From Chloroflexia bacterium (GTDB lineage Bacteria > Chloroflexota > Chloroflexia > QHBQ01 > JADMIH01): 64,000 nt of DNA. Where the stretch lies: contig DASVVE010000016.1 in NCBI GenBank assembly GCA_036386675.1, forward strand, positions 122,561 through 186,560. Reading direction: 5' to 3'. Below, piece by piece: positions 2,314 to 61,623 of the stretch. Position 1 is the first letter of the stretch, and every line of letters starts with the position of its first letter. The notes beneath the pieces are model-generated. The model was given only the letters and a program-made list of their open reading frames with translations, made no database searches and had not been told where the DNA came from. The position numbers and the translations under genes are program-made.

Positions 2314-2829
2314 TTGGACGTCGCTTCAGTTGTGATACGTGAAGCCCGCATCTCAGACGCCGCCGGGTGCATCACTTTCTTGCGCGAGATTACTTCCGAG
2401 CCTGACATCATGATCCCCGGCTACCCTGACGATTGGGACTTTCCGGTGCAGGATGAAGAGGCTTTTATCCAGGACATGGTGGCTACGCCCAATTGCCTGA
2501 TGCTGGTCGTGGAAGCCGAGGGGAGGATAATGGGCATCCTGACCTGTCACGGCGGCAAGCGGCGCGCTATGCAACATGCAGTGATGCTGGGTGTCTCGCT
2601 ACACAAGGACTACCGCGACCGTGGACTGGGCCACCAATTGATGCAACGAGCCATAGATTGGGCCAGGGCTACCGGCATCACACGTATCGAGCTATTTGTC
2701 TATGTAGAAAACGCAAAGGGCATCCACCTGTATGAGAAGTTCGGCTTCAAGATCGAGGGCCGCCGCACCCGCGCCTACTACCACCATGGCAGGTATATAG
2801 ACGACCTAATTATGGCGCTGTTGCTTTAG
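2314..2829 (+). CDS. GNAT-family N-acetyltransferase
   Basis: 171 aa with acetyl-CoA binding-like motifs (HQLMQRAIDWARATGITRIELFV...NAKGIHLYEKFGF). TTG start; an alternative GTG lies ~18 nt downstream. Confidence 0.75.
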   Translation: MDVASVVIREARISDAAGCITFLREITSEPDIMIPGYPDDWDFPVQDEEAFIQDMVATPNCLMLVVEAEGRIMGILTCHGGKRRAMQHAVMLGVSLHKDYRDRGLGHQLMQRAIDWARATGITRIELFVYVENAKGIHLYEKFGFKIEGRRTRAYYHHGRYIDDLIMALLL

Positions 2830-2978
2830 ACGATGGACGATAGACGATGGACTATGGCAGACGAAAACGCAAAGACGCAAAGAACTCAAAGGACGCGCAA
2901 AGTAGATTACTGTTGGGAAGGGTGCTGACCTCTACTCAGTCCTCAGTCCTGTCGTCCATCGTCCATCGTCCATCGTCC
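2829..2978. repeat. Modular palindromic tandem-repeat element (copy E1): [GACGATrGAC]n-[ACGCAAAG]n-conserved core-[CAGTCCT]n-[GTCCATCGTC]n
   Basis: gacgatggacgatagacgatggac...cgcaaagacgcaaag...tagattactgttgggaagggtgctgacctctactcagtcctcagtcct...gtcgtccatcgtccatcgtccatcgtcc. Lies between the GNAT stop and the plsX RBS. Confidence 0.85.
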
Positions 2979-2996: not shown

Positions 2997-3998
2997 ATGA
3001 GAATTGCCCTGGATGCAATGGGGGGCGACCACGCCCCGCTTGAGACAGTGAAGGGAGCCATCGAGGCGGCGCGGGAGTACGGCATCGAGGTGGTGCTGGT
3101 GGGGCAGGAGGCTGCTATCCAGGCTGAGCTTGCTAAGGGCGGTACGTCGGGTCTCAAGCTCACGATTGAGCCTGCCGCCTCCGTCATCCCGATGGACGAG
3201 CACCAGCCCTCTACGGCGTGGCGGCGGCAGCGCGATTCGTCCCTCACCGTCGGCTTGCAGTTGCTGGCCGACCGCAAGGTGGACGCGTTCGTGTCGGCGG
3301 GCAACACCGGCGCTGTGGTGTCAGGTGGGACGTTCGTGCTGCGGCGCATCGAGGGCATAGACCGCCCTGCATTGGGGGTGCCGTTCCCCGCGATGGGTAA
3401 CATAGGCAAAATATTCCTCGTAGACGTGGGGGCCACACCTGACGCCAAGGCTCACTACCTGCTACAGTGGGCGCGTCTCGCTTCAATCTACATGGAGCGC
3501 GTGTACGACGTGAAGAACCCGCGCGTGGGCCTTGTATCTAACGGTGAGGAGGAGATCAAAGGCTCGGAGCTGGTGCGCGAGACGTTTCCGCTGTTGCAGA
3601 ATAGCGGCCTCAACTTCGTGGGCAATGTGGAGGGCAAGGACGTGCCCAACGGCGTGGCCGACGTGGTGGTGACCGATGGCTTCACCGGCAACGTGCTCCT
3701 TAAGACCACTGAGGGTGTCGCCAAGATGATCTTCGACCTGCTCCGCGCCGAACTGACTTCCAGCATGGTGAGCAAGCTGTTCGCCGCCGCCCTGCGCCCC
3801 AACTTCCGCCGTATAGCCGCCCGCCTGGACTACGCTGAATATGGCGGCTCAATAGTGATGGGTGTGGACGGTCTGCTCATCAAGCCGCACGGCCGCTCCA
3901 ACGCCAAGGCGATCAAGAACGCCATCCGGGTAGCCAAGAGCGGGGTCGAGCAGGATGTGATGAGCATCTTCCGCCAGGTGGGGGCGGCTGGACAATAG
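2997..3998 (+). CDS. plsX: Phosphate acyltransferase PlsX
   Basis: MRIALDAMGGDHAP... N-terminus and PlsX-typical GNTGA and FTGNV regions. RBS aaaggagac upstream. Confidence 0.9.
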   Translation: MRIALDAMGGDHAPLETVKGAIEAAREYGIEVVLVGQEAAIQAELAKGGTSGLKLTIEPAASVIPMDEHQPSTAWRRQRDSSLTVGLQLLADRKVDAFVSAGNTGAVVSGGTFVLRRIEGIDRPALGVPFPAMGNIGKIFLVDVGATPDAKAHYLLQWARLASIYMERVYDVKNPRVGLVSNGEEEIKGSELVRETFPLLQNSGLNFVGNVEGKDVPNGVADVVVTDGFTGNVLLKTTEGVAKMIFDLLRAELTSSMVSKLFAAALRPNFRRIAARLDYAEYGGSIVMGVDGLLIKPHGRSNAKAIKNAIRVAKSGVEQDVMSIFRQVGAAGQ

Positions 3999-4194
3999 AC
4001 GATGGACGATGGACGATAGTAGGAGAGACGGAACCGCCAAGACGCCAAGGACGCCAAGGACGCCAAGAACCCGCCAAGGTTTAGAATTGTTGTTGCGAAG
4101 AGTGCTAACAGCTACTCAGTCCTCCTCACTCCTCACTCCTCACTCCTCACTCCTATCGTCCATCGTCCATCGTCCATCGTCCATCGTCCATCGT
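3999..4194. repeat. Modular palindromic tandem-repeat element (copy E2), same family as E1
   Basis: (gacgatggac)x3 - (gacgccaagg)x4 - tttagaattgttgttgcgaagagtgctaacagctactcagtcctc - (ctcactcct)x4 - (atcgtccatc)x4. Sits between convergent plsX and the methyltransferase gene. Confidence 0.85.
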
Positions 4195-4201
4195 CTGCCC
4201 T

Positions 4202-5576: not shown

Positions 5577-5742
5577 CACACTCCCCCGTGTCATCCTGAG
5601 CGCAGCGAAGGATCTCAAATGCTCCTCTTGTCGTTGCGGTGAACCCACAGCACCCTACCTTTTTTGCTCAAAGTTCAACAGCCTCCCTACTCAGCTTCTT
5701 GAGATCCTTCGCTGCGCTCAGGATGACACGGGGGAGTGTGGT
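5577..5742. repeat. MITE-like palindrome: 43-bp perfect terminal inverted repeats (ccacactcccccgtgtcatcctgagcgcagcgaaggatctcaa) around an ~80-bp spacer
   Basis: The left arm 5577-5619 is the exact reverse complement of the right arm 5700-5742. Located immediately upstream of the wecB-like gene. Confidence 0.85.
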
Positions 5743-6912: not shown

Positions 6913-6965
6913 CGCGTAACAGACGGGTGCCATTTACGACTTACGAGTTACGTGTTACGAGTCAC
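6901..6965. repeat. Short palindromic element built of CGTAAC/GTTACG repeats, overlapping the last codons of wecB
   Basis: tgtaacacgtaacgcgtaac...ttacgagttacgtgttacgagtcac. The wecB stop taa (6910-6912) lies inside the left arm. Confidence 0.7.
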
Positions 6966-21178: not shown

Positions 21179-21250
21179 TGGACGGACGATAGACGATAGA
21201 CGATAGACGATGGCTTGTTTCCTATCGTCCGCCGTCCATCGTCTATCGTC
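21179..21250. repeat. Minimal GACGATAGAC/GTCTATCGTC hairpin element inside the oppD-oppF intergenic gap
   Basis: ggacggacgatagacgatagacgatagacgatgg-cttgttt-cctatcgtccgccgtccatcgtctatcgtcc. Confidence 0.75.
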
Positions 21251-21251
21251 C

Positions 21252-22439: not shown

Positions 22440-22853
22440 AATCCGCCCGGTGCTGTGACGTGTCGCGCGCCTACTGTCGTGTTACGCGACCCATGCCCCG
22501 CGGTTCCAGTCCCTTACATGATATGTTGCTCAACTATTACTATGCTTGCGCTATGTTTCCGGCTCCAGCAGACTCACATGCGAAAATCTGAAGCCATGCC
22601 GAAGTAAAGGGGATTTACATGGCAGTAAAGTCAATCAACCGGACAGGGTATCGCTGCTCTCTAGTTCGCTTTCCTGGTTCCTTGGTTGGCTTGCTAAGGG
22701 GATCCGCTTCTCGTGTGTTGACCGCGCACACTACGGCAAAAAGCGTGCCCCCAGTGTAGCAAATGTGCGCACAGGTGTCAACTGCGACATCAAATGTGAC
22801 AGTCACCTGCGTTCCTAATGCAATACACAACGGCGTGCCTGGAAAGGTTCAAA

Positions 22854-23018
22854 GGGACGAGGGACGATAGGAGACGGAAACGCCAAGACGCTAAGACGCC
22901 AAGTACCACGCCAAGGTTAAAGATTGTTTTTAGTTGGGTGCTGACCTGTACCCAGTCCTCAGTCCTCAGTCCTCAGTCCTCAGTCCTCAGTCCTCATCAC
23001 TCCTATCGTCCATCGTCC
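22854..23018. repeat. Modular palindromic tandem-repeat element (copy E4) with a conserved core
   Basis: gggacgagggacgatagg...(acgccaaga-like)x4...ttaaagattgtttttagttgggtgctgacctgtacccagtcctc(agtcctc)x5...atcgtccatcgtcc. Confidence 0.8.
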
Positions 23019-23020
23019 AC

Positions 23021-27979: not shown

Positions 27980-28180
27980 AACTCGACTACCTCCACTATG
28001 GGAAAGTTCGCTACCATCAGGTGCCCGACATCCCTGCATGTGTCTCACAACGTCCTATATTGTACACAGAACTCATCAAATTTCCATGCAGGGTGAGAGG
28101 TATCCGTAGATGCTGCTAAGGACACGTATCGTGGCGGCATGTGTCCTTAGCAGCATCGCACATGTCGGATGTAATTAAGG

Positions 28181-28343
28181 ATGCAACTACAGGTCAAAAC
28201 TTGCCCATGTTTGCAGTGAAACTTTGCAACTGCCTGTGGAGAAAGTCTGCAACTACCCTCAATTTAGCAAACAAAGTATGCAACTGGCCTCGTACTCCTG
28301 TGCTGCGACGTCGGCCACAGAGTCGCAAATCTCTGCAACTAGC
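28181..28343. promoter_or_regulatory. Array of five direct repeats TGCAACT(A/G)(C/G)C in the upstream region of the large membrane-protein gene
   Basis: Copies at 28181, 28224, 28247, 28278 and 28333. A further copy plus its inverted partner at 28381/28431 form a hairpin. Confidence 0.35.
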
Positions 28344-28380
28344 CTAACCCTCTCTCCTCACAAACTGGTGTAGCTAAACA

Positions 28381-28441
28381 TTGCAACCAGCCTACAGGAC
28401 TCTGAGTTGTTTCTCAAGTCAGAGTCCTGTAGGCTGGTTGC
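28381..28441. terminator. 24-bp perfect inverted repeat hairpin downstream of the lipoprotein gene
   Basis: tgcaaccagcctacaggactctga-gttgtttctcaag-tcagagtcctgtaggctggttgca. Confidence 0.45.
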
Positions 28442-28526
28442 ACTGGGTGTCCGTCCCGAATTGTGGAGCAAAGCTAGACCGATACCACGTGGGGAGCGAG
28501 TAGGCTGTTACGTGCTAGAGATCCAA

Positions 28527-29651
28527 TTATTTATCTGCGCAACTCGCAGTTCCCCAGGATTCGAGTGATAGACTGGTTGGCGGGAACGACTCGTATGCAG
28601 CAACCCTCGTCCAAGCAAAGCCTGAGATATGATACCTTAGACCTTTACCCTGACCTGTCGCTCTGTCCCAGAGGGGTACAGGGACTATGAAACCACTCGT
28701 CTGTAAGAAGTCAAGGGTGCTCCTGGTCTCCGGACTTGTGCCGATGTTCTCGATTGTCTGTAGCCAGTCTCCTACAGATGCCCTATGGTCGTTGGCATCC
28801 TCTGAGTTGGCGTAATTTACGTTCTCGCCGGGCGTTGGTAAGGCAGAAGCTCTACCCGGACTGCCTGTGCCGGAACTGAATGCTAACCATCTGAAGCCCC
28901 GGGCACCCGCAGTATCTAGACTCACCTTGTTCTTGTCGTGGCGACTTTTCGATCCTTTGAAGCTGTCGGCGTGAACTGCCAGAGGATACACCTTACAGGG
29001 GGTGTTGGTCTCCCACTGTCTTGTTTGTAGGTTGTAAGCAATCATAGAGGTGGAACCGTCTTTCTGGGGAGCGATCAGAATAACGCGAGGCAAGTCTATG
29101 TATGCGATGTCCAGGGCGCCTTGCTTCTGTGGCGAGGTATACAGGATAACGTCACTTAGGTCCCGGCCTTCGAGTGTGGTCGTAAAAACCTGAACCGCAC
29201 CCTGTAGCGGATCATCACTTAGCACTCCGGCGTTCAGATACGCATATTCGTTACCCAACTTACCTCCCCAACAGGAAGTCACATGAAAAGTCCTGCTACC
29301 CCCTCCGCACGTTCCCAAACCGGGTTCAGGCGTGTCTTGCGGCTCAGGAGTGGCCGGAGGAGGTAGTGTCGGCATGGGTGCCTTGTTCTCAGCGACCCTG
29401 GTCTTCGCTGCGTCTCGCTTCGCTTGATCCATATCCAGGAAGGCTTGTTTTGTAGCCTCTACTTCCGCACGCGTCGGCGTATGAGTCTGGGAGGCGGCGA
29501 CTGTCTGATTCGGCACGCTGAGGGCATTGCCGGAGTCGTTCTGCGTGTCGTCGTTGTTACCGTTACATCCTGCGATGAGCAACAGGCTCACTAGTAGAGC
29601 AGGTCCCAGTACCCTTATGGCTGTGGTCCGTCTCTTGGTACTCACTTTCAC
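28527..29651 (-). CDS. Lipoprotein (lipobox LIAGC), unknown function
   Basis: N-terminus MKVSTKRRTTAIRVLGPALLVSLLLIAGCNG with a Pro/Thr-rich linker. 374 aa. Confidence 0.65.
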   Translation of the reverse strand: MKVSTKRRTTAIRVLGPALLVSLLLIAGCNGNNDDTQNDSGNALSVPNQTVAASQTHTPTRAEVEATKQAFLDMDQAKRDAAKTRVAENKAPMPTLPPPATPEPQDTPEPGLGTCGGGSRTFHVTSCWGGKLGNEYAYLNAGVLSDDPLQGAVQVFTTTLEGRDLSDVILYTSPQKQGALDIAYIDLPRVILIAPQKDGSTSMIAYNLQTRQWETNTPCKVYPLAVHADSFKGSKSRHDKNKVSLDTAGARGFRWLAFSSGTGSPGRASALPTPGENVNYANSEDANDHRASVGDWLQTIENIGTSPETRSTLDFLQTSGFIVPVPLWDRATGQGKGLRYHISGFAWTRVAAYESFPPTSLSLESWGTASCADK

Positions 29652-29740
29652 TTTGTTCCTCCTGACCCTGGCTTGCTACAAAAGTATGCCCAACCGTACA
29701 CAGTTGATCGCTGGAGTGGTACAAACCTGAGCATACAGGC

Positions 29741-32700
29741 TTATGGATAAATAATGTCGGTTACTCCATATTGCAAAATTGACTGAGGTTCAAGTAAAGG
29801 GTTAGGCACCTTCTGGGGTGCAGTAGGAGATCCAGTTAGGGGAGCATGAGGCGAGCTAAGCATATCTGTCAATGCTTGCCATGCTCGATGAGGTGGTAAG
29901 TAGGGACAGCCAGCACCTCCTGCCGCGCCGCTAGTGCAGGAGTAGGGTTGCCAATTACCCGTGCAGTCGGCCCCGTCCTGGGTCGTACATTTGTCATTAA
30001 ACCGCTCGTTGAAGCGTGCCGGTGTACTTGTCATACGTGCGGCACATGTGCTGTTTACGGCACAGCCTGACATGGCTCCTAAGAAACGCATATTGCTGCC
30101 CTGGTGAACCTTGGCATACCATTTGACGTTGTACCATTCCCACATGTAGGGTGTGAGGTATATTTGTGGCAGCGGCCAGGCATTAACCAAACCATATGAC
30201 ACATAGTACACACGATTCAGTGCCTCGCTTACTAGAGGACTTTGCGCCCATGTTGTCGGGCTCCCGCCTCGGGGGCAGCCCTCACAACTACCAAAGTTGA
30301 ACGCCGCCACATCTGGAATTGAGGTAAAGCCTTCTGCCCAGTACTTGGTCCCAGACTTCGCCGAGTCGTTGATCCTGTATCTACTCCATCGATCTGGATC
30401 GGCTGTCACGTTGTCAGCATTCACATTGGGGCAGGGACCTCGTTCACCTAGCACGGTATCCCTACAGTCCAGGTCAGTGGATGCATAGTACTCAAAGTCA
30501 TAACCACCTGCAAAGCTGACAGCACCACTCAAATATGGGTCTGACGCAGCTTCCTGACGCAGAGCACTTACCATTCCGGCCCACGCCGCTCCATGGCTGT
30601 AATTCAGATCCATATTATCCTGCCAGATATGTGGGCCATCAGCCAGGTACGCGGTATTGCTAACGCCTAGAACGATCGTCAGGTCAGCCACCGTGTTAGG
30701 AGCCTGGCAGCCCTGTCCAAGCGTATAGCCTAGGGCGAACTCTCGCGCTATAGCCTGGACTTCAGCCAACGAAACTAACGTACGAACAACTATGAGTCGT
30801 GCTCCATATTCGACACCTGGTGGGGAACTTACGCTTTGGATATATGGCCCTCCAAAATCCAGCACTACCAGACCTGTCTCGCCTCTTTGCCGCGCTTCAC
30901 ACCCCAAGAGCCGTGCATCGGCAGGATCGGCACTCTGTATGTAATAACTTGTGGTATGTTTTGGAGGTGTCGGTAAGGCAAAGCCCTGGGCTGAAGATAC
31001 CGCCCACTGACCTGTACCTGACTGTGCAGTAGCTACAATTTGATACATCCGGTATGCTGAATCTCCCGGCAGCGTAACTGTGTTCCATCCGCCTGTCAGC
31101 GTAACGGCAGATGTAATCGTTTGGGCGTCAGACATACCGCAGATACCCCATTGGTCGCAACTAACCTGATTTCCAGCTCTAATGTCAATTGTAGTAGCGT
31201 AGTTGCCTTCCTGGTATAGCCTGATAGTACCAACATTCGTAGGTGTTGTCAGGTCAACACGCCAGTTGTCACTTCGTGCCCCCCATATTGTAGCTTCGTT
31301 GCCATCCGTGGCGTTACCGGCCATGTATGCACAGCCACCGAAACATTCGGCACCATCCCAGGCGCGCTTGCCCAGGAACACGTCATCGGGAGGTGGAGGA
31401 GGCGGAGGAGTACCCATGATCCCTTGTATGGTGTGTACTCTCCAGCCGTCCTGTATCCCAATATGTGCTGTTGCTACAATGCTATACATACGGTACGCTG
31501 CATCTCCGGGCAGAGCAATCTCGTTCCACCCATTTACCACAGCCACATTGGCCTTTATTGTTCGCGGATCGCTCGTATCACAAATGCCCCAGCCGTCGCA
31601 CCCTACGACAGTGCCTGCGACTATGTCAACAGCCGTAGCATAGTTTCCGTCCTGGAAGAACGTTATCTTTACGATCGGCACTTGCTGCCCAACATCTACA
31701 CGCCAACTGTTGCTTCTGGCTCCCCAGTACGTGGTGCTGTTGTTGTCTACGGCATTTCCTGCCATGTTGGCACAGCCGCCAAAGCACTCGTTTCCGTCCC
31801 ACGCCGGCTTGCCTAGGAAGACGTCCTCCCCGGCCGCCGGGGTGGCCGGAGTGCTGGAAGGAGTAGCCGTGTTTGTTGATGTGGGTGTCGAGGTAGGTGT
31901 CGAAGTGGATGTAGATGTTGCTGTGAATGTTGGCGTGGGAGTAGCTCCAGGAACACCGTTACAGATGTAGGCATCCTGCACCTTGCTGCCCGTGTTATAG
32001 AGCGAACTGTCCATGTATAGAGGAGCGGACGGCGCGGTTACGGTGCTCGTGTACACAGCTACACCGTTGCGGTAGTAGCGCACTAGCCCCGAGCTACCCA
32101 CTCCAATAGCCAGCTCGTCACCTACGTCGTACAAGCTCACCGCTCCTTTAGTGGTACCGCTCTCTGCAACCGTCAAGCCACTGGTGCCCGGGTCTATATA
32201 GAAGGCGTAGTCCAGGTTCTGCCAGGTAACGTTGTTGGAGGGGTCATCGGAGAGGCCAAACATCAATATGTCCTGCGTCGAGGCCACCGTGGCGCGCACG
32301 TATCCTGTGCTGCCGGGCTGCAGGGCCGCACTAGATATGGCACCCGCGTTCCAGCCCGTACCTCCCGCCGTCTTCGCCAGGGTATTGCCTGTGGGGGTGG
32401 CATTCTGCCCGCCGGTCCACGTTACCGGCTGGCAGTTGCTCGTAGATATAGGTTCAGTGAGGCTGGCACCGCAAAGAGATGCATCCTGCACCTTGCTGCC
32501 CGAAGTGTAAAGGGAGCTATCTAGGAACAGTGGGTACTTGGGCGCTACCGTGCTGGTGTAGAGTAGCTCACCGTTCTTGTAGTAGCGGACGATCTGTGTA
32601 TCGTCCACGGCCACTCGCAACGTGTCCCCGGCATCGTACAGCCCATATCCTCCCCTGTTGGTCCCCTTCTCCACGATCTGTAATTTGCCCGCGTACGGGT

Positions 32701-34150
32701 CTATGTAGAAAGCATAATCGATGCTCTGCCACTGCACGTCAATATCGGAATTGGACAGGCCAAACATGAGGATGTCGCCGGACGAAGCCACTGTCATCTG
32801 AACATAGCCACGCCCTGACAGGATGCCCTTCCTGGAGGCACCTCCTGCGTTCCAGGCGCTGCCCCCGCTTACCTTTGTGATCGTATTCCCTGCGGCCGAG
32901 ACGTTGCGCTTACCCGTCCACGCCCCGTCCAGGCTGTCGCATGGCGACTGAGGCAAAGCCGGGTGCGCGCTCGCCCCACAAATCTGAGCATTCTGTACCT
33001 TACCACCCACATTCCAGATGGAGCTATCCATATAAAGGGGGTAAGTGGGTGCCGCTGTGCTGGTGTAGACGAGCTGGTTATTGAGATAGTATCGCACTAC
33101 CCCCGCTTGGTCTACCGCGATAGTTAGTTCATCTCCCGCATCATACATGCTCCACAAGGCTTTGGTGTTGCCCTTCTCCTGGACTGATAGCACGCCTACG
33201 CCCGGGTCTATATAGAAGGCGTAGTCCAGACTGGTCCAGTTTACGTCGCTGTCCTGGTGGGAGAGGCCAAACATGAGGGTATCGATGCCTGAAGCTATGG
33301 TGGCTCGCACGTACCCGCTGTTGCCGGACTGTATAGCCTGGCTGGAAGCAGCCCCGGCGTTCCAGCCGCTGCCCCCGGCCGTCTTCTGAACAGTGTTGCC
33401 GGTGGACATAGCGTTGCGGGTGTGGACCCACGTCACCGCCTCACAGGTGGAGGTAGGCAGCGGCGCGGGCGCACTGCCCCCGCAAATCTGCGCGTTCTGC
33501 ACCTTGCCGCCCGAGTTCCAGATGGAGCTATCCATGTACAAAGGAAAGGTCGGGGCTACCAGGCTGGTGTAAAGGAGGTTGCCATTGCGATAGTAGCGTA
33601 CTGAAGTACCCTCTACAGCTACTCGCAGTACATCTCCGGCCGCGTATGCGCCGTAGCTGGCGAGGCCAGCTCCACGCTCTATTATCGTGAGACCCCCCGA
33701 GACTGCCGGGTCTATGTAGAACGCGTAGTCAAGAGACTGCCAATGTGCATCTTTATCAATGCGAGACAGCCCGAACATGAGCGTATGGCTGGTTGAAGCC
33801 ACCGTCGCTTCAACATGCCCGCTGCTTCCCGATTGGATGCCTACACTGGAAGCGGCACCTGCATTCCAGGCGCTACCGCCCGCTGTTTTCTCAATCGTGT
33901 TGCCGGTAGCAACCACGTTCCGCTTGTGGACCCATGTTACTGCCTGGCAGTCTTCCGGTCCGCTCATGAGGGCTGCCGCCGACGCAACGTCAACACCTGG
34001 GAAGGGGGTGAGGGTGACCGACTGTAGTGAGAGGGATGAAAGGGTGAGAAACAGGATCACCATGAAGACGATGCGAAGATACCAATGGGAAGAGCGTGGG
34101 CGGAACATGATGTGGGGGCATCCCTTCGCGTGTGAACGCATGTAGAACAC
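29741..34150 (-). CDS. Giant secreted multidomain protein (1469 aa): 5x LamG/ConA-like repeats, 2x discoidin (F5/8 type C)-like domains, and a ~500-aa Cys-containing C-terminal domain
   Basis: Five ~150-aa repeats with TGNTxxKTAGGxxWNAGAxS...MFGLS...DYAFYIDP...GDxLxVAV...RYYxNGxLxYTS. PT/S-rich and poly-Pro linkers. AWDGxECFGGCAxMAGNAxDxNxxTxWGARS discoidin-like modules. The start is uncertain among three Met codons (34150, 34141, 34108). Confidence 0.7.
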   Translation of the reverse strand: MFYMRSHAKGCPHIMFRPRSSHWYLRIVFMVILFLTLSSLSLQSVTLTPFPGVDVASAAALMSGPEDCQAVTWVHKRNVVATGNTIEKTAGGSAWNAGAASSVGIQSGSSGHVEATVASTSHTLMFGLSRIDKDAHWQSLDYAFYIDPAVSGGLTIIERGAGLASYGAYAAGDVLRVAVEGTSVRYYRNGNLLYTSLVAPTFPLYMDSSIWNSGGKVQNAQICGGSAPAPLPTSTCEAVTWVHTRNAMSTGNTVQKTAGGSGWNAGAASSQAIQSGNSGYVRATIASGIDTLMFGLSHQDSDVNWTSLDYAFYIDPGVGVLSVQEKGNTKALWSMYDAGDELTIAVDQAGVVRYYLNNQLVYTSTAAPTYPLYMDSSIWNVGGKVQNAQICGASAHPALPQSPCDSLDGAWTGKRNVSAAGNTITKVSGGSAWNAGGASRKGILSGRGYVQMTVASSGDILMFGLSNSDIDVQWQSIDYAFYIDPYAGKLQIVEKGTNRGGYGLYDAGDTLRVAVDDTQIVRYYKNGELLYTSTVAPKYPLFLDSSLYTSGSKVQDASLCGASLTEPISTSNCQPVTWTGGQNATPTGNTLAKTAGGTGWNAGAISSAALQPGSTGYVRATVASTQDILMFGLSDDPSNNVTWQNLDYAFYIDPGTSGLTVAESGTTKGAVSLYDVGDELAIGVGSSGLVRYYRNGVAVYTSTVTAPSAPLYMDSSLYNTGSKVQDAYICNGVPGATPTPTFTATSTSTSTPTSTPTSTNTATPSSTPATPAAGEDVFLGKPAWDGNECFGGCANMAGNAVDNNSTTYWGARSNSWRVDVGQQVPIVKITFFQDGNYATAVDIVAGTVVGCDGWGICDTSDPRTIKANVAVVNGWNEIALPGDAAYRMYSIVATAHIGIQDGWRVHTIQGIMGTPPPPPPPDDVFLGKRAWDGAECFGGCAYMAGNATDGNEATIWGARSDNWRVDLTTPTNVGTIRLYQEGNYATTIDIRAGNQVSCDQWGICGMSDAQTITSAVTLTGGWNTVTLPGDSAYRMYQIVATAQSGTGQWAVSSAQGFALPTPPKHTTSYYIQSADPADARLLGCEARQRGETGLVVLDFGGPYIQSVSSPPGVEYGARLIVVRTLVSLAEVQAIAREFALGYTLGQGCQAPNTVADLTIVLGVSNTAYLADGPHIWQDNMDLNYSHGAAWAGMVSALRQEAASDPYLSGAVSFAGGYDFEYYASTDLDCRDTVLGERGPCPNVNADNVTADPDRWSRYRINDSAKSGTKYWAEGFTSIPDVAAFNFGSCEGCPRGGSPTTWAQSPLVSEALNRVYYVSYGLVNAWPLPQIYLTPYMWEWYNVKWYAKVHQGSNMRFLGAMSGCAVNSTCAARMTSTPARFNERFNDKCTTQDGADCTGNWQPYSCTSGAAGGAGCPYLPPHRAWQALTDMLSSPHAPLTGSPTAPQKVPNPLLEPQSILQYGVTDIIYP

Positions 34151-36884: not shown

Positions 36885-37022
36885 CCGCAAAGGCTCAAAG
36901 AGCGCAAAGATAACACGGAGAACAATAGAGTGTTCCAACGAGAGGAGCAGGGTACGTGCTGTCGTACCCTGCTCCTCATTGAACTCTCCGAACCTTAATT
37001 TACCCGGCCTGGTCCTTTGCGG
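36885..37022. repeat. Palindromic element with CGCAAAG repeats and a central hairpin gagcagggtacgtgctgtcgtaccctgctc
   Basis: ccgcaaaggctcaaagagcgcaaag ... gaggagcagggtacgtgctgtcgtaccctgctcctc ... cctttgcgg. Lies between ogg and tdk. Confidence 0.7.
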
Positions 37023-37039: not shown

Positions 37040-37780
37040 TTATGCGCTGGCGAGGTCCGAGGGTTTGCCACCGGAGACCACGCGGAGGTGGGAGGGCGGT
37101 TCTTCTGGGTTATTAGCAGCGTCTTCCAGGGGCACTTCTATGACGCCCTGGTCCGGGCGTGGTACCTCGTGGCAATGGCGGCAGCGCGCTTCGTAGTTTT
37201 CTTTGGCCCCGACCATGATTATTGGGTCGTCGTAGTTGGCTGGTCGTCCGTCGATGAGGCGCTGGGTGCGGCTGGCGGGTGCCCCACACGCCACGCAAAT
37301 CGCCTGCAGCTTGTCCACCATCTCGGCCTCGGCCATGAGCAGGGGCATAGGGCCGAACGGCTCTCCCCTGAAGTCGAGGTCAAGCCCCGCCGCGATTACC
37401 CTCACGCCGTTGTGGGTCAGCCGCTTGCACAGGTCAACCACACCCTCATCGAAGAACTGCGCCTCGTCAATGGCGACCACGGTGGTGTCAGGCTCTACCA
37501 GGCCCTCTAGCTCGGTGGAGCCACCTACGGGGACGGCTGTGTGCAGCACGCCGTTATGCGAGGCGACCTGCACGGCTGAATAGCGCGTGTCGATGCGAGG
37601 CTTGAAGACCTGCACCTTCTGCCGGGCAATCTGCGCCCTTTTGACTCGGCGGATCAACTCCTCCGTCTTACCGGAGAACATACTGCCGCAGACCACTTCC
37701 AGCCACCCGCCCGCGTAATGCTTGGGGTGTGGGCCGAGCGGCCCCTGGTCCTGCATGTAGCGTTGCACGTAATCTCCCAT
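37040..37780 (-). CDS. tdk: Thymidine kinase
   Basis: [15 protein letters not shown]-loop and a C-terminal Zn ribbon (CVACG...CRHCH). Start MGDYV, preceded by aaggtggg. Confidence 0.9.
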
Positions 37781-37891
37781 CTTCCCACCTTTCAACCGGG
37801 ATAACCGCAATCATACGGTGGAAAAGGTGGCACGCTCTCTGTTTGCGCATCGATGCGAGGTATTGTTTTGCACAAGCTGAGCCAGGTTAGG

Positions 37892-38013
37892 AAGGACGAT
37901 AGAGGAGTGGTTAGTGGTTAGTGGTTAGTGGTTAGTTATTATCCGACCATCCTAATCTTTGCGCGTCCTTTGCGCTCTTTGCCTCTTTGCGTTTTCGTCT
38001 CCTACCATCGTCC
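37892..38013. repeat. Modular tandem-repeat element (copy E5), inverted orientation of the E1 family
   Basis: The reverse complement contains gacgatgg...acgaaaacgcaaagaggcaaagagcgcaaaggacgcgcaaag (near-identical to the E1 segment) followed by (actaacc)x4. Confidence 0.8.
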
Positions 38014-38072
38014 ATTAAAGCAAAAGAGACCAGAGCGCGAGGCCCGGTCTCTTCTCTGCTAACCCAATCGAG

Positions 38073-38408
38073 TTAGGCTTCGGTCGCGACCTCTTCAGTC
38101 TCGGTGGCCTCAGCCTGTGGGGCGGGGCGGCGCTCCTGGGGAGGAGGCGGCACGTTGGCCCTGTTGCCGGAGCCGCGGCGGGCGACCCGGACCTCATTGC
38201 TGGTCACGGTGCGGTTGCCCATGCGGCGCATGAAGCGCTCTACCTGGCCCGCCGTGTCAACGATGCGCTGCTCGCCGGTATAGAATGGGTGACAATTGCT
38301 GCAAAGGTCCGTCTTGAGGACTTCCTTGGTAGACATCGTCTGCCAGGTGTTGCCGCAAGCGCAGTGAACCGTTGCAAGTACGTACTTGGGGTGGATTCCT
38401 GCCTTCAT
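38073..38408 (-). CDS. rpmE: 50S ribosomal protein L31 with a ~40-aa Pro/Glu-rich C-terminal extension
   Basis: MKAGIHPKY...CxC...CSNCHPFYTG core, then ...NVPPPPQERRPAPQAEATETEEVATEA. Confidence 0.9.
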   Translation of the reverse strand: MKAGIHPKYVLATVHCACGNTWQTMSTKEVLKTDLCSNCHPFYTGEQRIVDTAGQVERFMRRMGNRTVTSNEVRVARRGSGNRANVPPPPQERRPAPQAEATETEEVATEA

Positions 38409-38428
38409 TGTTGTTTTACCTCGCTTGT

Positions 38429-38529
38429 TTAATTACGAATTACTAATTACGAATTACCAATTGTTTGTTACGAACCACGAATTACCACTTCCGAAATACC
38501 TGAGTAATTCGTAATTAGTAATTCGTAAC
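38429..38529. repeat. Palindromic element of TAATTACGAAT tandem repeats between rpmA and rpmE
   Basis: aattacgaattactaattacgaattaccaatt ... gagtaattcgtaattagtaattcgtaa. Confidence 0.75.
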
Positions 38530-38533
38530 TCGG

Positions 38534-38830: not shown

Positions 38831-38847
38831 TGCTTTCTCCCTTCGGG

Positions 38848-38934
38848 AGAGTGGATAGTGGATAGTGGATAGTGGTTAGAAGCTCTTTGCTAACCACTAT
38901 CCACTATCCACTATCCACTATCCACTATCCACTC
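38848..38934. repeat. Palindromic element of GTGGATA tandem repeats between rplU and rpmA
   Basis: gagagtggatagtggatagtggatagtggttag-aagctctttg-ctaaccactatccactatccactatccactatccactcc. Confidence 0.75.
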
Positions 38935-47017: not shown

Positions 47018-49075
47018 TTACCAATCGCGAGCGTCGTTGCGGTACTTCCACTCATGTGGAAACGGTCCTGACCGGGAAGGGGCAACCGGACCTGCTGGGG
47101 CCGCTGAGGTCTGGAATAATGGTTGGGTTACAGGTCCAGGTATCACCGGGGAGATAGAAGAACCTGTAGTGAGGCTAACGGGTAACGTAGCAGTAGGGCT
47201 GGGGACCAGTACGGGAGTGAAGGTAGGGGGCGGAGTAGGGGGTAGAGTCGGGGGTAAAGTAGGAGGTAGCGTAGCAGTAGGGCTGAGAACCAGCACAGGA
47301 GTGAAGGTAGGAGGCACAATAGGAACTGGAGTATCAGTGTAAGTAGCAGTAGCAACGGGAACCGAAGTAGGATCAAGGTCTGGAGTTGGAGCAATAATGT
47401 AAGTAGTTGCGGTGGCGGTGGAGCCAAGAACCAGGGTAGCACTAGGCTTGGGAATCGACGTAGGATCAAGGTCTGGAGGTGGGCCCGTGGTGGAGGTAGA
47501 CGTGGGAGTATTCTGGGGCGTGTCCGCGTCGGTGAGTGTATCGGGAAAGACCAGCCAGTGGTCGGCGTGGAACCATCTGGCCGAGGGATTTTCAGCGGGG
47601 TTTAGCTCGGCGCTACCCGACGAGGCGTACAGCACGTATATCCGCCGCACCGCCAGGTTCGGGTAGATCATCAGCCCTCCCTCGAAGTAAGCTACCAGAC
47701 CGCCGGTCTCCGTGCCTGGGGTATTCGTCTGTACGTCCGCGGGTGCGGTAGCCCAGCCTAGGCTTTCGCGCAGGTTCTGTTCGATCCAGACTTTGAGGAA
47801 AGTGCCGGTGGGTGGATAGAGGCCAGGCGGCACGTCCTTGGGCGACTCGGGTATATTGGTGGGGTCTACGTCGTTGAATGTCAGGACGCGCCCGTTATCG
47901 AACAACACATAGATGTCCTCGCGATCAGACATCCCGAATGTGTGAATACCTGCTTCATCGACGGTACCGCCCGCAGCACGTGCCGTTACGCTCACCATCT
48001 CACCACGCTGGTAGATCTGGCGCGTCACGGTGGCAGCCTTCTCCCGCTCGCGCATACACTTCAGGCGGACCCTTACGAACTCGTGATCCTGATATATGGG
48101 AGAGAATTTTCGCCCTGGGGTGCCGGACTGGCATGGCTTTAGAAGCACTTCGGGCTTGCCCGCGCCCTTGTAACGCCAATCGAGATAGTGCAGGCCCACG
48201 TTGCCCATCTGCACCTTGAAACCCTCTGGGGCGTCGGGTACGTAGGTGAGCACCCGCCGCTCGTATGCCTGCACCATGACGGGCGTCTGCTTACCCTCTA
48301 TCATCACCTTGGTCCAGTAGGCTTCACTTACCGGATAGCCCGTTACGTAGAAGTACGGCACGCTGAGTTGCGCGGTCGTCTTCTGGTCGTTCTCCATAAC
48401 GGGTCCCTGGGCGTTGAGGAAGTCAAAGAACACAGTGGGGATGTTGTGTTTGGTGGCAGGCTCGTAGTACGCATATGTAACACCAAACTCCCTGGCACGC
48501 TGTACATAAAACTGGGCTCTCGCGGAGTCGGGGTAGCCGTCGTCGGCAAGCCTTTGGACGACTTGCTTGCCTACGGCCTGCTGCGCGTCCTGCTCTATCA
48601 CGTAACCCAGGCTTGCGTACTTAACCGTTCCTGAGGCACCTGGCGAGTCGCCCGCCACCGGGATTTCGGCTGGGTAGCGAAAAGTGAACTTGCTGTTCCC
48701 GGTCTGCATGTTGCCGCTAACAAGCTCCCTGGTGAGCAGGCCGTTGGTGACGTAGAAGGGGCTGTTCTTGTCACCCGCGGGGTTGTTGATCTCCATGCGG
48801 CTCTTATCGAAATACTGCACGAGATGCTTACCCTGCGGCCCCTCTGCATAGTCCTCAAGTACCTGCCCTGTGTTAGGTTGCGGACCCCAGTACCAGCTTC
48901 GCTTTACTGCCCCATTCGCGACAAACGAATCGGTGCGGGTCCACACTCGCTCGAAGGCGGGGTCCGCGAACCTGCCTTCCTGATTAGCATGCACGGCCGA
49001 GCTACCGGGCGTGACACTAAGCAGGGGCAGTACAAGCAACAAGCTGATACAGACGAGAAGCTGTCGAGTCTTCAT
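47018..49075 (-). CDS. Secreted protein of unknown function (paralog 2) with a ~180-aa Pro/Thr-rich C-terminal extension
   Basis: Roughly two-thirds identical to paralog 1 over ~500 aa by eye, then ...PTLPPTLPPTPPPTFTPVLV... low-complexity repeats. Confidence 0.6.
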   Translation of the reverse strand: MKTRQLLVCISLLLVLPLLSVTPGSSAVHANQEGRFADPAFERVWTRTDSFVANGAVKRSWYWGPQPNTGQVLEDYAEGPQGKHLVQYFDKSRMEINNPAGDKNSPFYVTNGLLTRELVSGNMQTGNSKFTFRYPAEIPVAGDSPGASGTVKYASLGYVIEQDAQQAVGKQVVQRLADDGYPDSARAQFYVQRAREFGVTYAYYEPATKHNIPTVFFDFLNAQGPVMENDQKTTAQLSVPYFYVTGYPVSEAYWTKVMIEGKQTPVMVQAYERRVLTYVPDAPEGFKVQMGNVGLHYLDWRYKGAGKPEVLLKPCQSGTPGRKFSPIYQDHEFVRVRLKCMREREKAATVTRQIYQRGEMVSVTARAAGGTVDEAGIHTFGMSDREDIYVLFDNGRVLTFNDVDPTNIPESPKDVPPGLYPPTGTFLKVWIEQNLRESLGWATAPADVQTNTPGTETGGLVAYFEGGLMIYPNLAVRRIYVLYASSGSAELNPAENPSARWFHADHWLVFPDTLTDADTPQNTPTSTSTTGPPPDLDPTSIPKPSATLVLGSTATATTYIIAPTPDLDPTSVPVATATYTDTPVPIVPPTFTPVLVLSPTATLPPTLPPTLPPTPPPTFTPVLVPSPTATLPVSLTTGSSISPVIPGPVTQPLFQTSAAPAGPVAPSRSGPFPHEWKYRNDARDW

Positions 49076-52233: not shown

Positions 52234-52293
52234 GGACGATGGACGATGGACGATGGACGATGGGTAGAGGGAACAAACCCCTCTGCCCATCGT
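52234..52293. repeat. (GGACGATGGAC)x4 ... cccatcgtc hairpin element directly after the aceA stop
   Basis: gggacgatggacgatggacgatggacgatggg-tagagggaacaaacccctctg-cccatcgtc. Confidence 0.7.
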
Positions 52294-52344
52294 CTGTTGT
52301 AGTGGCTGGAGCAACATAGAGCACGGGAACCAGTCTTGCCCTTC

Positions 52345-52538
52345 TCATCTTGAGCGTAGCAAAGGATCAGTGGCTCGTGCTTGGTTGCGTAACAGTGGCG
52401 ACCAAAGCCTCGGCCTTGTCATTCTGAACGCAGTGAAGAATCTCGTCCTTCAGCACCCAAGTTTCACCTTTCCTACAGCAACAGAGTCCCATAAGAAAGC
52501 GGGAGCATACTGGTATGGGACGAGATTCTTCGCTACGC
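52345..52538. repeat. Diverged copies of the 5577-5742 palindrome family (arms gtcattctgaacgcagtgaagaatctcgtc / gacgagattcttcgctacgctcagaataac, plus a third partial arm tcatcttgagcgtagcaaaggatc)
   Basis: Arms at 52417-52446 and 52509-52538 are imperfect reverse complements and differ at ~5 positions from the gtcatcctgagcgcagcgaaggatctc arms at 5590. The partial arm is at 52345-52368. Confidence 0.6.
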
Positions 52539-52620
52539 TCAGAATAACAAAGGGGGTAAGGTTCCGCAGCTCGATAGTAGCGCAGCCGCGTTCTATCTTA
52601 GAGAGGGGCACCGCAGGGGA

Positions 52621-56937: not shown

Positions 56938-57093
56938 AAACGCCAAGACGCGGAGACGCCAAGGACGCGCCAAGTAAACTAAGGTTTAGAGAGTACAAGA
57001 GGACCAGGGTACAGTATGTCGTACCCTGGTCCTTTATCTTGAGCCACAATCCTACTATTGGCGTGGTCCTTGGCGTCTCCGCGTCTTGGCGTT
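56938..57093. repeat. Palindromic element: ~37-bp near-perfect IR arms of ACGCCAAG-type repeats around the central hairpin ggaccagggtacagtatgtcgtaccctggtcc
   Basis: aaacgccaagacgcggagacgccaaggacgcgccaag ... ggaccagggtacagtatgtcgtaccctggtcc ... ttggcgtggtccttggcgtctccgcgtcttggcgttt. Confidence 0.8.
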
Positions 57094-57102
57094 TAGACGT
57101 GG

Positions 57103-59328: not shown

Positions 59329-59346
59329 AACTCCTCCATGTCATAA

Positions 59347-59443
59347 GTGCCGAGTGCCGAGTGCCGAGTACCGAGTGCCGAGTACCGGGTACCGAGTGAT
59401 TGTTGCGTACCTACTTGGCGCTCGGTACTCGGTACTCGGTACT
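59347..59443. repeat. Palindromic element of GTGCCGAGT/GTACCGAGT repeats; its right arm encodes the last ~10 residues of the histidine kinase
   Basis: gtgccgagtgccgagtgccgagtaccgagtgccgagtaccgggtaccgagtg-attgttgcgtacctacttggcg-ctcggtactcggtactcggtac. The HK C-terminus STEYRVPSAK* is read from this arm. Confidence 0.75.
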
Positions 59444-61453: not shown

Positions 61454-61623
61454 GGCATGGTAGACGCCCGTCGATTGAAATCGAGGGCTACACATTGCGA
61501 AGTCTGCCCTGCGGCAGACTGGTTCACCTTGAGCATCTGTAAAGACCTAATGAAATGTTTCAGTCCCGCAGGGACTTTGCAAAGTGTAGCCCTCGATTTC
61601 AATCGACGGGCGTCTACCATGCC
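61454..61623. repeat. MITE-like palindrome: 39-bp perfect terminal inverted repeats (ggcatggtagacgcccgtcgattgaaatcgagggctaca) with an imperfectly palindromic interior, ~170 bp
   Basis: Left arm starts at 61454 and the right arm ends at 61623. Mirror-image ORFs 61331-61645(+) and 61384-61620(-) are artefacts of it. Confidence 0.85.

What the first reader, a model, noticed from the sequence alone, without database searches (positions are those of the whole stretch)
37892..38013. Inverted-orientation copy of the E1 element with near-identical CGCAAAG array but a different core and different far-side repeats
The reverse complement of 37892-38013 matches E1 almost base for base over ...gacgaaaacgcaaaga(c/g)gcaaag...aaaggacgcgcaaag. 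It then diverges into attaggatggtcggataataactaacc and (ACTAACC)4 instead of the E1 core and (CAGTCCT)n. This indicates modular shuffling: arms, spacer arrays and cores recombine independently.
Basis: seen in the sequence. Interest (0 to 1): 0.55.

Follow-up and report, generated by a model that had tools for sequence, protein, structure and literature searches.

The report
Mosaic hairpin repeat in Chloroflexia spacers
This 120-base stretch between two housekeeping genes is one copy of a family of non-coding, hairpin-forming repeats built from short tandem units, found in an uncultured group of Chloroflexia bacteria; I found no description of the family in the searchable literature and it evolves fast, but it is of a familiar general kind (like REP/BIME or MITE repeats) and probably does nothing specific at this site.

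Summary
The reverse complement of 37957-38000 matches E1 (2859-2902) at 41/44 bases, and an array profile built only from other genomes finds it at E 7e-8.

The element (37894-38013, minus strand) lies between the rpmE terminator and the tdk promoter region. It reads GGACGAT-AGGAG / structured (CGCMAAG)x4 module / short core / (ACTAACC)4 / CTCCT-ATCGTCC.

It belongs to a multi-genome family restricted, in my sample, to a clade of Chloroflexia MAGs. That family includes a symmetric ~172-nt form, with two array modules inverted around a bidirectional terminator.

The "different core" is a diverged short allele of the same core. The heptamer array looks like a tandem expansion of the core's 3' end.

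Orthologous spacers in relatives with 92-97% protein identity show:
- heptamer copy-number change;
- replacement of the core+heptamer module;
- concerted A/C switching of whole arrays;
- inversion of the element;
- presence versus absence.

So modular exchange is real, by recombination or conversion, although the modules are not unrelated parts.

Orientation relative to genes is random, arm mismatches show no RNA wobble bias, and the closing stem decays in the orthologues.

Best reading: a DNA-level selfish or neutral mosaic repeat, a new variant of a known kind. Interest is moderate.

The parts
38007..38013 (-). Left outer arm: one GGACGAT heptamer, the inverted partner of 37894-37900
   Evidence: inverted repeat I7. 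In other copies the same unit forms arrays of 2-6.
37999..38006 (-). Junction GG+TAGGAG. AGGAG pairs with CTCCT at 37903-37907. TAGGAGACG is also the terminus of the symmetric (class B) form.
   Evidence: RNA fold puts it in the 14-bp closing stem.
37957..37998 (-). Array module: leader ACGAAAA plus four CGCAAAG-type units with spacing 8-9-11
   Evidence: 41/44 identical to E1 2859-2902. Spacing pattern shared by 51/111 arrays. Profile hit E 6.8e-8. 90% identical in both positional orthologues.
37937..37956 (-). Core ATTAGGATGGTCGGATAATA, a short allele of the family core/linker
   Evidence: MAFFT of 16 copies. 86% full-length match to L004 from another genome.
37909..37936 (-). (ACTAACC)4 tandem heptamer array
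   Evidence: TRF 100% matches. Three copies in orthologue L198; replaced by (AACTCAY)5 in L196.
37894..37908 (-). ACTCCTCT plus right outer arm ATCGTCC
38024..38053 (-). Flank, not part of the element: rpmE intrinsic-terminator hairpin AAGAGACC...GGTCTCTT followed by TTTGCTTT
   Evidence: Inverted repeat I5. Stem conserved in L196, L198 and L204.
37781..37893 (-). Flank, not part of the element: conserved tdk upstream region (TTGTGCAAAACAA, ATGCGCAAA, -10-like TATGAT at 37810-37815, SD-overlapping inverted repeat)
   Evidence: 88% identical in L196 and L198. Retained in L199, L203 and L204, which lack the element.
2829..2978 (+).
   Evidence: Absent from the orthologous spacer in three relatives.
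3989..4200 (+). Family member C2: C-type array of 5 units, long core, (CTCCTCA)4, (ATCGTCC)6. It fills the whole convergent plsX/methyltransferase spacer.
22853..23020 (+). Family member C3: C-type array, long core, (CAGTCCT)6. It is antisense to both flanking genes.
56938..57097 (.). Symmetric (class B) member: inverted (ACGCCAAG)n modules around the terminator-like hairpin AGGACCAGGGTAC...GTACCCTGGTCCT
36886..37021 (.). Degenerate class B member in the tdk-ogg spacer (CGCAAAG type)
   Evidence: Orthologues present in L196 and L198, absent in L199.
38846..38933 (.). Plain heptamer-array hairpin (GGATAGT)n/(ACTATCC)n in the rplU-rpmA spacer. Its unit differs by 1 nt from the array in the finding.

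Best explanation
Window 37894-38013 (minus strand) is a non-coding copy of a lineage-specific family of mosaic, nested-palindrome intergenic repeats found in an uncultured Chloroflexia clade.

Anatomy (shown):
- The outer inverted heptamers GGACGAT/ATCGTCC, extended by AGGAG/CTCCT, close a 14-bp stem around a ~95-nt A/C-rich interior.
- The interior has three parts:
  - the family's terminal module, GAGACGRAAM plus four CGCMAAG units at 8-9-11 spacing;
  - a short allele of the family core;
  - a heptamer array, (ACTAACC)4.
- The family's full symmetric form is ~172 nt. It carries two such array modules in inverted orientation around a bidirectional intrinsic terminator, and is sometimes itself nested inside GGACGAT arms.

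Origin (inferred): the finding looks like a one-sided ('half') derivative of that symmetric form. Its heptamer array looks like a tandem expansion of the core's 3' end.

History at this site (shown by orthologues): the element was already here in the common ancestor of the window organism, SMAG_U3237 and GCA_030156085. Since then:
- the heptamer copy number changed (3 versus 4);
- the closing stem accumulated uncompensated substitutions;
- one lineage swapped the core+heptamer segment for that of another subfamily.

Mechanism (inferred):
- Arrays grow and shrink by replication slippage.
- The two arms of a palindrome are kept alike by intra-palindrome recombination or templated repair, which also flips the interior.
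- Modules are exchanged between copies by ectopic gene conversion, using the shared arms and arrays as homology.
- How new sites are colonised is unknown.

Role at this locus (inferred): the copy most likely has no specific function. It sits in the gap between the rpmE terminator and the tdk promoter region as tolerated selfish or neutral DNA.
For: Family membership and host range:
About 75 of them are in ten MAGs, nine labelled Chloroflexia/Chloroflexota/Roseiflexaceae and one contig labelled Actinomycetota.
- There were 144 arrays in ~520 kb of those MAGs' loci (plus 3 in the window, 147 in all) and 0 in 281 kb of other loci.
- The full-length element is 83-86% identical to non-orthologous copies L004 and L041.

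Structured module.

Common core.

Symmetric form: length mode 171-175 nt, with conserved termini.

Turnover at orthologous sites:
- rpmE-tdk.
- plsX flanks, showing an A/C array switch, inversion, absence, and replacement by a different hairpin.
- Class B pairs L017/L021, L034/L093, L035/L107 and L025/L082 have switched array type in both arms together.

Arm-to-arm recombination: the central 18 nt of the rplU-rpmA hairpin are exactly reverse-complemented between the window and L198, and the heptamer unit differs in every copy of both arms.

Concerted homogeneity: 104/147 arrays are homogeneous against 28.6 expected, and arm types are concordant.

DNA-level rather than RNA-level:
- Class C orientation relative to flanking genes is 8 sense and 9 antisense.
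- Arm mismatches on the transcribed strand are 48 GU-type against 53 AC-type, p = 0.69.
- The closing stem is mutated without compensation in both orthologues: GGGCCAT and GGACCCT opposite ATCGTCC.
- There is no Rfam match.

Location: the element lies downstream of a conserved terminator hairpin and upstream of a tdk upstream block that persists in relatives lacking the element.
Against: - Copies at non-orthologous sites stay ~77-86% identical whether compared within or between genomes, and no pair exceeded 86% (n = 15). This fits constraint or continual regeneration better than pure neutral decay, and gives no sign of a recent copy-paste burst.
- The array module is the best-conserved segment at the orthologous site, 90% against 80-88% for the flanks. 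The numbers are small.
- Elements sit mostly 3' of genes: class B contexts are 13 tandem, 10 convergent and 1 divergent. This would also fit a terminator or 3'-end function.
- No transposase, unambiguous target-site duplication or clean empty site with alignable flanks was found.
- Transcription across the element was not measured.
Confidence: 0.62

Rival explanations
1. It is a functional RNA structure. Read-through transcripts from rpmE fold into the closing stem, which acts as a 3' exonuclease barrier, an RNase III site or a transcriptional insulator, as proposed for REP/BIME hairpins.
For: - RNA fold -34.5 kcal/mol, z = -3.6. E1 folds at -61.9 kcal/mol, z = -5.6.
- The family lies mostly downstream of genes.
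- Class B has a canonical bidirectional terminator at its centre.
- Copies remain ~80% alike across genomes.
Against: - The stem decays without compensation in both orthologues.
- There is no GU-over-AC bias on the transcribed strand.
- Orientation is random. A symmetric stem is compatible with that, but the asymmetric interior is not.
- The element lies after a conserved terminator, so it should be little transcribed.
- The closing stem is not followed by a U tract.
Confidence: 0.15
2. The (CGCMAAG)4 module is a binding platform for a lineage-specific DNA- or RNA-binding protein, such as a nucleoid-associated or termination-associated factor. The element acts through that protein.
For: - Fixed four-unit architecture with 8-9-11 spacing in 51/111 arrays.
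- Invariant CGC-A-AG positions.
- It is the best-conserved segment at the orthologous site.
- In the symmetric form, transcripts arriving from either side would carry the same array sequence upstream of the terminator. This is read from the palindrome.
Against: - Whole arrays switch between CGCCAAG, CGCAAAG and CGCAGAG at orthologous sites.
- Genomes differ strongly in preferred type, 164:15 against 19:47.
- One-sided copies occur in both orientations.
- No candidate protein was identified.
Confidence: 0.1
3. It is, or recently was, an active MITE-like element mobilised in trans by a transposase. It inserts at a TA in the centre of pre-existing heptamer hairpins, which would explain the nesting.
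For: - Terminal inverted repeats GAGACGGAAAC...GTTTCCGTCTC and a ~172-nt modal size.
- Junctions often read ggacgaTA|GGAGACGG ... CTCC|TAtcgtcc.
- Presence/absence and replacement occur among relatives with 95-97% protein identity.
- Other MITE-like palindromes occur in the same window.
- Contigs often end in the arrays, as expected for a high-copy repeat.
Against: - TA is self-complementary, so it may simply extend the palindrome.
- No empty site with alignable flanks was found.
- No cognate transposase was found or searched for genome-wide.
- No near-identical copies were seen; the maximum is 86%.
- No hits in viral contigs.
Confidence: 0.2
4. The similarity to E1 is a chance resemblance of two low-complexity microsatellites.
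For: The matching segment is internally repetitive.
Against: - 41/44 identities, E 5e-13.
- Unit-specific spacers and a non-repetitive leader are shared.
- An independent profile hits at E 6.8e-8.
- Full-length homologues exist in other genomes.
Confidence: 0.01

Closest known systems
REP sequences and bacterial interspersed mosaic elements (BIMEs) of Proteobacteria; REPINs
   Same: - High-copy, lineage-specific, extragenic palindromic DNA.
- Mostly 3' of genes or between convergent genes.
- Built as mosaics of inverted units and conserved linkers.
- Able to form long hairpins.
- Proposed to be selfish DNA that may be co-opted for termination or mRNA stability (PMC2817692, PMC3733652, PMC3116915).
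   Different: - The units here are tandem 7-9-nt repeats, not single 20-40-nt imperfect palindromes.
- The layers are nested like an onion rather than alternating side by side.
- No GTAG head is present. CGTC occurs inside ATCGTCC and CCGTCTC, but not as a REP head.
- A RAYT link was not tested.
Tandem heptanucleotide repeats of bacteria: cyanobacterial STRR (my own knowledge, Mazel et al. 1990), long simple sequence repeats (Mrazek et al. 2007, as summarised in PMC4679880), and TAACTGA repeats of Beggiatoaceae (PMC4679880)
   Same: - Period-7 arrays concentrated in non-coding DNA, including ribosomal-protein operons.
- Phylogenetically patchy distribution.
- Slippage is the accepted source of copy-number change.
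   Different: - Here the arrays come as inverted pairs forming hairpins.
- Many different units are used (GGACGAT, AATTACG, GGATAGT, ACTAACC, AACTCAT, GTAACAC and others).
- The arrays are combined with a fixed four-unit 8-9-11 module and a core.
- TAACTGA repeats are direct repeats placed just upstream of start codons.
MITEs and modular intergenic repeats such as Neisseria Correia/NEMIS, enterobacterial ERIC, and pneumococcal BOX (boxA-(boxB)n-boxC) (my own knowledge; reviewed in PMC3184786)
   Same: - Non-coding elements of 100-300 nt with terminal inverted repeats.
- Variable numbers of an internal subunit.
- Some carry terminators or promoters.
- Insertion polymorphism between close relatives.
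   Different: - No demonstrated target-site duplication or parent IS.
- No sequence relation to these families.
- Arrays show concerted switching of unit type in both arms, which is not a described feature of those families.
Bidirectional intrinsic terminators
   Same: The symmetric members of the family have at their centre an A-tract / GC-rich hairpin / T-tract, for example AAAGAGGACCAGGGTAC...GTACCCTGGTCCTCTTT, and sit between tandem or convergent genes.
   Different: The finding itself lacks this centre. Its closing stem is not followed by a T tract, and it lies downstream of a separate rpmE terminator.

Membership tests
REP / BIME | Unit is a 20-40-nt imperfect palindrome with a conserved GTAG (or CGTC) head at one end (PMC3733652) | tested here: not met
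   Arms are tandem 7-mers and the inner module is four 7-mers at 8-9-11 spacing. There is no GTAG head, and CGTC is internal to the units.
REP / BIME | High copy number, extragenic, preferentially at the 3' ends of genes | tested here: met
- 19-20 of 23 period-7 arrays in the window lie outside ORFs.
- Class B contexts are 13 tandem, 10 convergent, 1 divergent.
REP / BIME | Association with a RAYT (Y1, IS200/IS605-like) transposase gene flanked by the repeats | not tested
   Whole genomes could not be scanned. The only transposase-like gene seen near the site is a DDE_Tnp_1 fragment, which is unrelated in kind.
MITE | Terminal inverted repeats | tested here: met
   - Symmetric form: GAGACGGAAAC(GCCAAG...)...GTTTCCGTCTC in 23 of 23 paired copies.
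- The finding has only the 12-14-nt GGACGAT..AGGAG / CTCCT..ATCGTCC pair.
MITE | Target-site duplication flanking the element | tested here: inconclusive
   TA is frequent at both junctions, but TA is palindromic and indistinguishable from an extension of the inverted repeat.
MITE | Presence/absence polymorphism at orthologous sites | tested here: met
   - The plsX-methyltransferase spacer is filled in the window, L205 and L206, and nearly empty in L207.
- E1's site holds a different hairpin in three relatives.
- The tdk-ogg class B element is absent in L199.
- Exact boundaries cannot be resolved.
MITE | A cognate autonomous IS with the same ends | not tested
   This needs complete genomes of the clade.
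Cyanobacterial STRR / bacterial heptanucleotide LSSR | Tandem arrays of a 7-nt unit in non-coding DNA | tested here: met
   TRF finds (AGTGGTT)4.4 at 100% matches, and about 20 other period-7 arrays in the window.
Cyanobacterial STRR / bacterial heptanucleotide LSSR | Cyanobacterial host and the STRR consensus units (my own knowledge) | tested here: not met
   Hosts are Chloroflexia MAGs. The units differ, and the arrays are inverted pairs combined with other modules.
Intrinsic terminator | GC-rich hairpin immediately followed by a U tract on the transcribed strand | tested here: not met
   The closing stem of the finding is followed by TTCCTAACC, and the scan found nothing there. The real rpmE terminator is the separate hairpin at 38024-38053.
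Any Rfam RNA family | Covariance-model match | tested here: not met
   0 matches at gathering score in the whole window, and 0 at E <= 1 in 37700-38100.

The most novel reading that the evidence does not exclude
The family is not just passively decaying DNA but the product of a dedicated, still unknown system in this Chloroflexia clade. One possibility is an enzyme, such as a hairpin-targeting recombinase or transposase or a repeat-writing polymerase activity, that installs and symmetrises tandem 7-9-nt units on both arms of palindromes and swaps their interiors. Another is a protein that reads the (CGCMAAG)4 platform next to terminators. Either would explain three things: whole arrays and both arms switch unit type together; interiors flip; and copies stay ~80% alike across genomes without any near-identical pairs.
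Probability: 0.1. Interest if true: 0.7.

Novelty: new variant of a known kind. Interest (0 to 1): 0.42.

Why it matters
- **Annotation and assembly.** This repeat family and its heptamer-hairpin relatives occupy most spacers I examined in the window, about 13 elements in 64 kb. They break short-read assemblies: contigs end in the arrays, and many plsX contigs are only 1-4 kb. They also supply or overlap stop codons of neighbouring genes.
- **Genome evolution.** The family offers an unusually clear natural series. In relatives with 92-97% protein identity, slippage, palindrome flip-flop, concerted unit switching, ectopic conversion and gain/loss can all be read at the same orthologous sites.
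- **Limits.** The family does not open a new mechanism by itself, and the single copy in the finding is probably inert.

Tried and rejected
- **Rfam.** The whole window at gathering score, and 37700-38100 at E <= 1, gave nothing.
- **Promoter/terminator consensus scan of 37700-38500.** No promoter was found. It missed the rpmE terminator because that loop exceeds 8 nt.
- **Metagenome scan with Tdk.** It returned only relatives of 75% identity or less, which were useless for orthologous comparison. This was replaced by protein-homologue look-ups.
- **Target-site duplication.** Only the ambiguous TA was found.
- **An RBS (CCAAAGGAG) as part of the element's right end.** Rejected: L207 keeps AAAGGAGAC at the same place next to a different hairpin.
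- **Strand-specific RNA function** (leader, sRNA or rut-like C-rich tract). Rejected on random orientation and on the wobble test.
- **Recent copy-paste burst.** No pair above 86% identity among 15 class B copies.
- **Phage carriage.** 0 hits in viral contigs.
- **Literature search.** Four searches found no description of these elements in Chloroflexi.
- **Ideas seen but not pursued.** The resemblance of (TATCCAC)n to DnaA boxes, and the fact that GAGACG/CGTCTC is a type IIS restriction site. Both look coincidental, since the units change between orthologues.

Full report
**Source and setting**

The window is part of JGI metagenome contig Ga0334948_000014 (255 kb). The same L31 protein occurs on contigs from two other samples. 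Close protein homologues are labelled 'Chloroflexia bacterium' MAGs. GC content is 59%.

The finding lies on the minus strand between rpmE (38073-38408) and tdk (37040-37780), within the gene order rplU-rpmA-rpmE-tdk-ogg.

**Checking the observation**

On the minus strand the element reads GGACGAT-GG-TAGGAG-ACGAAAA-CGCAAAG-A-GGCAAAG-AG-CGCAAAG-GACG-CGCAAAG-ATTAGGATGGTCGGATAATA-(ACTAACC)4-ACTCCTCT-ATCGTCC. It spans 38013 down to 37894.

- TRF reports the heptamer array at 100% matches.
- Ungapped blastn gives 41/44 identities between the finding's array and 2859-2902, E 5e-13.

The match is more than low complexity.
- The array is a fixed four-unit module whose 8-9-11 start-to-start spacing is shared by E1, the finding and 51 of 111 arrays elsewhere.
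- A profile built from 50 arrays of other genomes finds the finding's array at E 6.8e-8.

**The family**

Four 'class C' copies occur in the window (2829-2978, 3989-4200, 22853-23020, 37894-38013). All have the same order of parts:
- (GGACGAT)n
- AGGAG
- ACGRAAM
- (CGCMAAG)4-5
- core
- (heptamer X)n
- CTCCT
- (ATCGTCC)n

The window also holds 'class B' elements (2026-2198, 36886-37021, 56938-57097). In these, two array modules in inverted orientation flank a terminator-like hairpin. There are also plain hairpins made of inverted heptamer arrays with various units (6902-6962, 21184-21251, 38431-38532, 38846-38933, 52234-52300, 59346-59443).

- About 75 come from ten MAGs, nine labelled Chloroflexia, Chloroflexota or Roseiflexaceae and one contig labelled Actinomycetota. 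Many are +/- pairs 150-320 nt apart.
- The remaining stretches are single chance hits without arrays: 0 arrays in 281 kb, against 144 in ~520 kb of the clade's loci plus 3 in the window.
- Class B has a modal length of 171-175 nt and termini GAGACGGAAAC...GTTTCCGTCTC. Longer copies carry an extra nested layer of CGCAGAG arrays or other insertions. Some are nested inside GGACGAT arms.

**The 'different core'**

An alignment of 16 class C copies shows one common core, approximately GGATgATgGTT-(tgggaagg)-GGGTAC-TAt. It has a long and a short form, and the finding has the short form.

The whole finding matches L004 from MAG PEA bin11, at a non-orthologous site, at 86% over 115 nt, core and (ACTAACC)n included. 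It is 83% identical to L041. It therefore belongs to a recurrent 'ACTAACC subtype'.

In copy L005 the core ends ...GGTACTAACCACTAC and is followed directly by (TCAGTCC)n. I infer that the alternative right-hand arrays are tandem expansions of adjacent 7-mers of the same core end. The core also resembles the linker plus left terminator stem of class B, which suggests class C is a one-sided derivative. That comparison was made by eye sequences.

**Orthologous sites: rpmE-tdk**

Tdk homologues led to the same spacer in L198 (SMAG_U3237, 96%), L196 (GCA_030156085, 96%) and others. The element is present in all three close genomes.

| Comparison with the window | Upstream flank | Array module | Core + heptamers | Downstream flank |
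|---|---|---|---|---|
| L198 | 81% | 90% | 76% | 88% |
| L196 | 80% | 90% | 43% | 88% |

- L198 has three ACTAACC units where the window has four.
- In L196 the core and heptamers have become the (AACTCAY)5 subtype.
- The left arm is GGGCCAT in L198 and GGACCCT in L196, opposite an unchanged ATCGTCC. The closing stem is therefore decaying without compensation.
- Relatives at 90-92% Tdk identity carry ltrA between rpmE and tdk and lack the element, but keep the tdk upstream block.
- More distant relatives (80-86%) have other heptamer arrays or none.

**Orthologous sites: around plsX**

- E1's spacer holds a plain (GTAACAC)n hairpin in three relatives with 92-97% PlsX identity.
- The plsX-methyltransferase spacer (C2), compared with those relatives:
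  - the 97% relative has an all-CGCAAAG array where the window has all-CGCCAAG;
  - the 92% relative has the element inverted, of ACTAACC subtype;
  - the 95% relative has almost no spacer.
- The stop codons of the GNAT gene and of plsX lie inside the first degenerate heptamer (TAGACGAT).

**Signs of DNA-level processes**

- The central 18 nt of the rplU-rpmA hairpin are exactly reverse-complemented between the window and L198. Its unit is GGATAGT in the window and GGTTAGT in L198, in every copy of both arms.
- Four orthologous class B pairs differ in array type in both arms together.
- 104 of 147 arrays are homogeneous in unit type, against 28.6 +/- 3.6 expected under within-genome shuffling. 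Left and right arms agree in type.
- Genomes differ in preferred type: 164 C to 15 A in SMAG_U3210, against 19 C to 47 A in PEA bin11.

**Tests for RNA function**

- The finding folds into a 14-bp closing stem round an unstructured interior. As RNA it gives -34.5 kcal/mol, z = -3.6. As DNA, z = -1.8.
- Class C orientation relative to flanking genes is 8 sense, 9 antisense, 6 convergent and 4 divergent.
- In 13 class B copies between co-directional genes, arm mismatches on the transcribed strand are 48 GU-type against 53 AC-type, p = 0.69.
- There is no Rfam match.
- The finding lies after a conserved terminator hairpin (38024-38053, followed by a T-rich tail) and before the conserved tdk upstream block, so it should be little transcribed. 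This is an inference.

**Points that cut the other way**

- Class B copies are about as similar within genomes (median 0.79) as between genomes (0.77). None exceeds 0.86.
- Class B contexts are 13 tandem, 10 convergent and 1 divergent.
- These results leave room for a terminator-associated function of the symmetric form, or for a binding platform.

**Comparison with known systems**

The nearest kinds are listed below.
- REP/BIME/REPIN repeats (PMC2817692, PMC3733652, PMC3116915).
- Tandem heptanucleotide repeats (PMC4679880, which also summarises Mrazek et al. 2007; cyanobacterial STRR from my own knowledge).
- MITE-like modular repeats (PMC3184786).

The family shares their location, copy number, palindromy, mosaicism and slippage. 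It fails the defining REP unit structure. A target-site duplication and a cognate transposase remain untested or inconclusive.

Four literature searches found no description of these elements in Chloroflexi.

**Verdict**

- The element is a real, apparently undescribed variant of a known kind of intergenic repeat.
- At this site it is probably inert.

Noticed in passing
window 38846-38933; L198 1379-1472; L196 1328-1426: The rplU-rpmA hairpin has a different heptamer unit in each of three close genomes: GGATAGT, GGTTAGT and GAGTTNT types. The change affects all copies of both arms. Between the window and L198 the central 18 nt are exactly reverse-complemented (flip-flop).
   Followed up: yes
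L198 and L196 (rplU-rpmA spacer versus rpmE-tdk element, about 0.9 kb apart); window 37909-37936 versus 38846-38933: In each of L198 and L196 the right-hand heptamer of the rpmE-tdk element is the same unit as in that genome's rplU-rpmA hairpin (ACTAACC in L198, AACTCAN in L196). In the window the two differ by 1 nt. This suggests conversion between neighbouring arrays, but remains unexplained.
   Followed up: partly
window 37781-37893 (minus strand): The tdk upstream region is conserved. It is 88% identical in L196 and L198, and partly retained in relatives lacking the repeat. It contains TTGTGCAAAACAA, ATGCGCAAA, a -10-like TATGAT (37810-37815) and an inverted repeat CCACCTTT/AAAGGTGG (37823-37830 / 37785-37792) overlapping the Shine-Dalgarno sequence. 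It has no Rfam match and may be a promoter or leader control element.
   Followed up: partly
window 5575-5739 and 52414-52552: Two copies of another palindromic, MITE-like element of about 140-165 nt with long terminal inverted repeats (GTCATYCTGARCGYAGYGAAGRATC...). Copies occur in several of the fetched Chloroflexia loci, sometimes inserted inside class B/C elements.
   Followed up: partly
window 61463-61623: A third palindromic repeat family (TIR GGTAGACGCCCGTCGATTGAAATCGAGGGCTACA...), matching L083, L065 and L070 at 82-85%.
   Followed up: no
window 2826-2831 and 3994-4000: The TAG stop codons of the GNAT gene and of plsX lie inside the first degenerate heptamer (TAGACGAT) of the adjoining repeat. 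The C-terminal residues and length of PlsX differ between relatives with and without the element (333-339 aa).
   Followed up: partly
window 25037-34150: A block of large minus-strand ORFs with low third-position GC (0.53-0.59, against about 0.8 elsewhere). It includes a 1003-aa DUF6185 protein and a 1469-aa protein with an F5/8 type C domain, and may be horizontally acquired.
   Followed up: no
window 47181-47353: An 84-nt tandem repeat (2.1 copies, with a 12-nt sub-repeat) inside a 685-aa ORF (47018-49075) that has no Pfam match.
   Followed up: no
L199, L203, L204 (relatives with Tdk 90-92% identity): An ltrA gene lies on the opposite strand between rpmE and tdk in these relatives. Gene order at this site therefore differs within the clade. 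L203 has a small (ACTCGTC)3 array at the position where the window has the right arm.
   Followed up: partly
table; L002 end; several loci: Contigs carrying close plsX homologues are often only 1-4 kb long, and many contigs end inside the arrays. This is consistent with these repeats breaking short-read assemblies.
   Followed up: no
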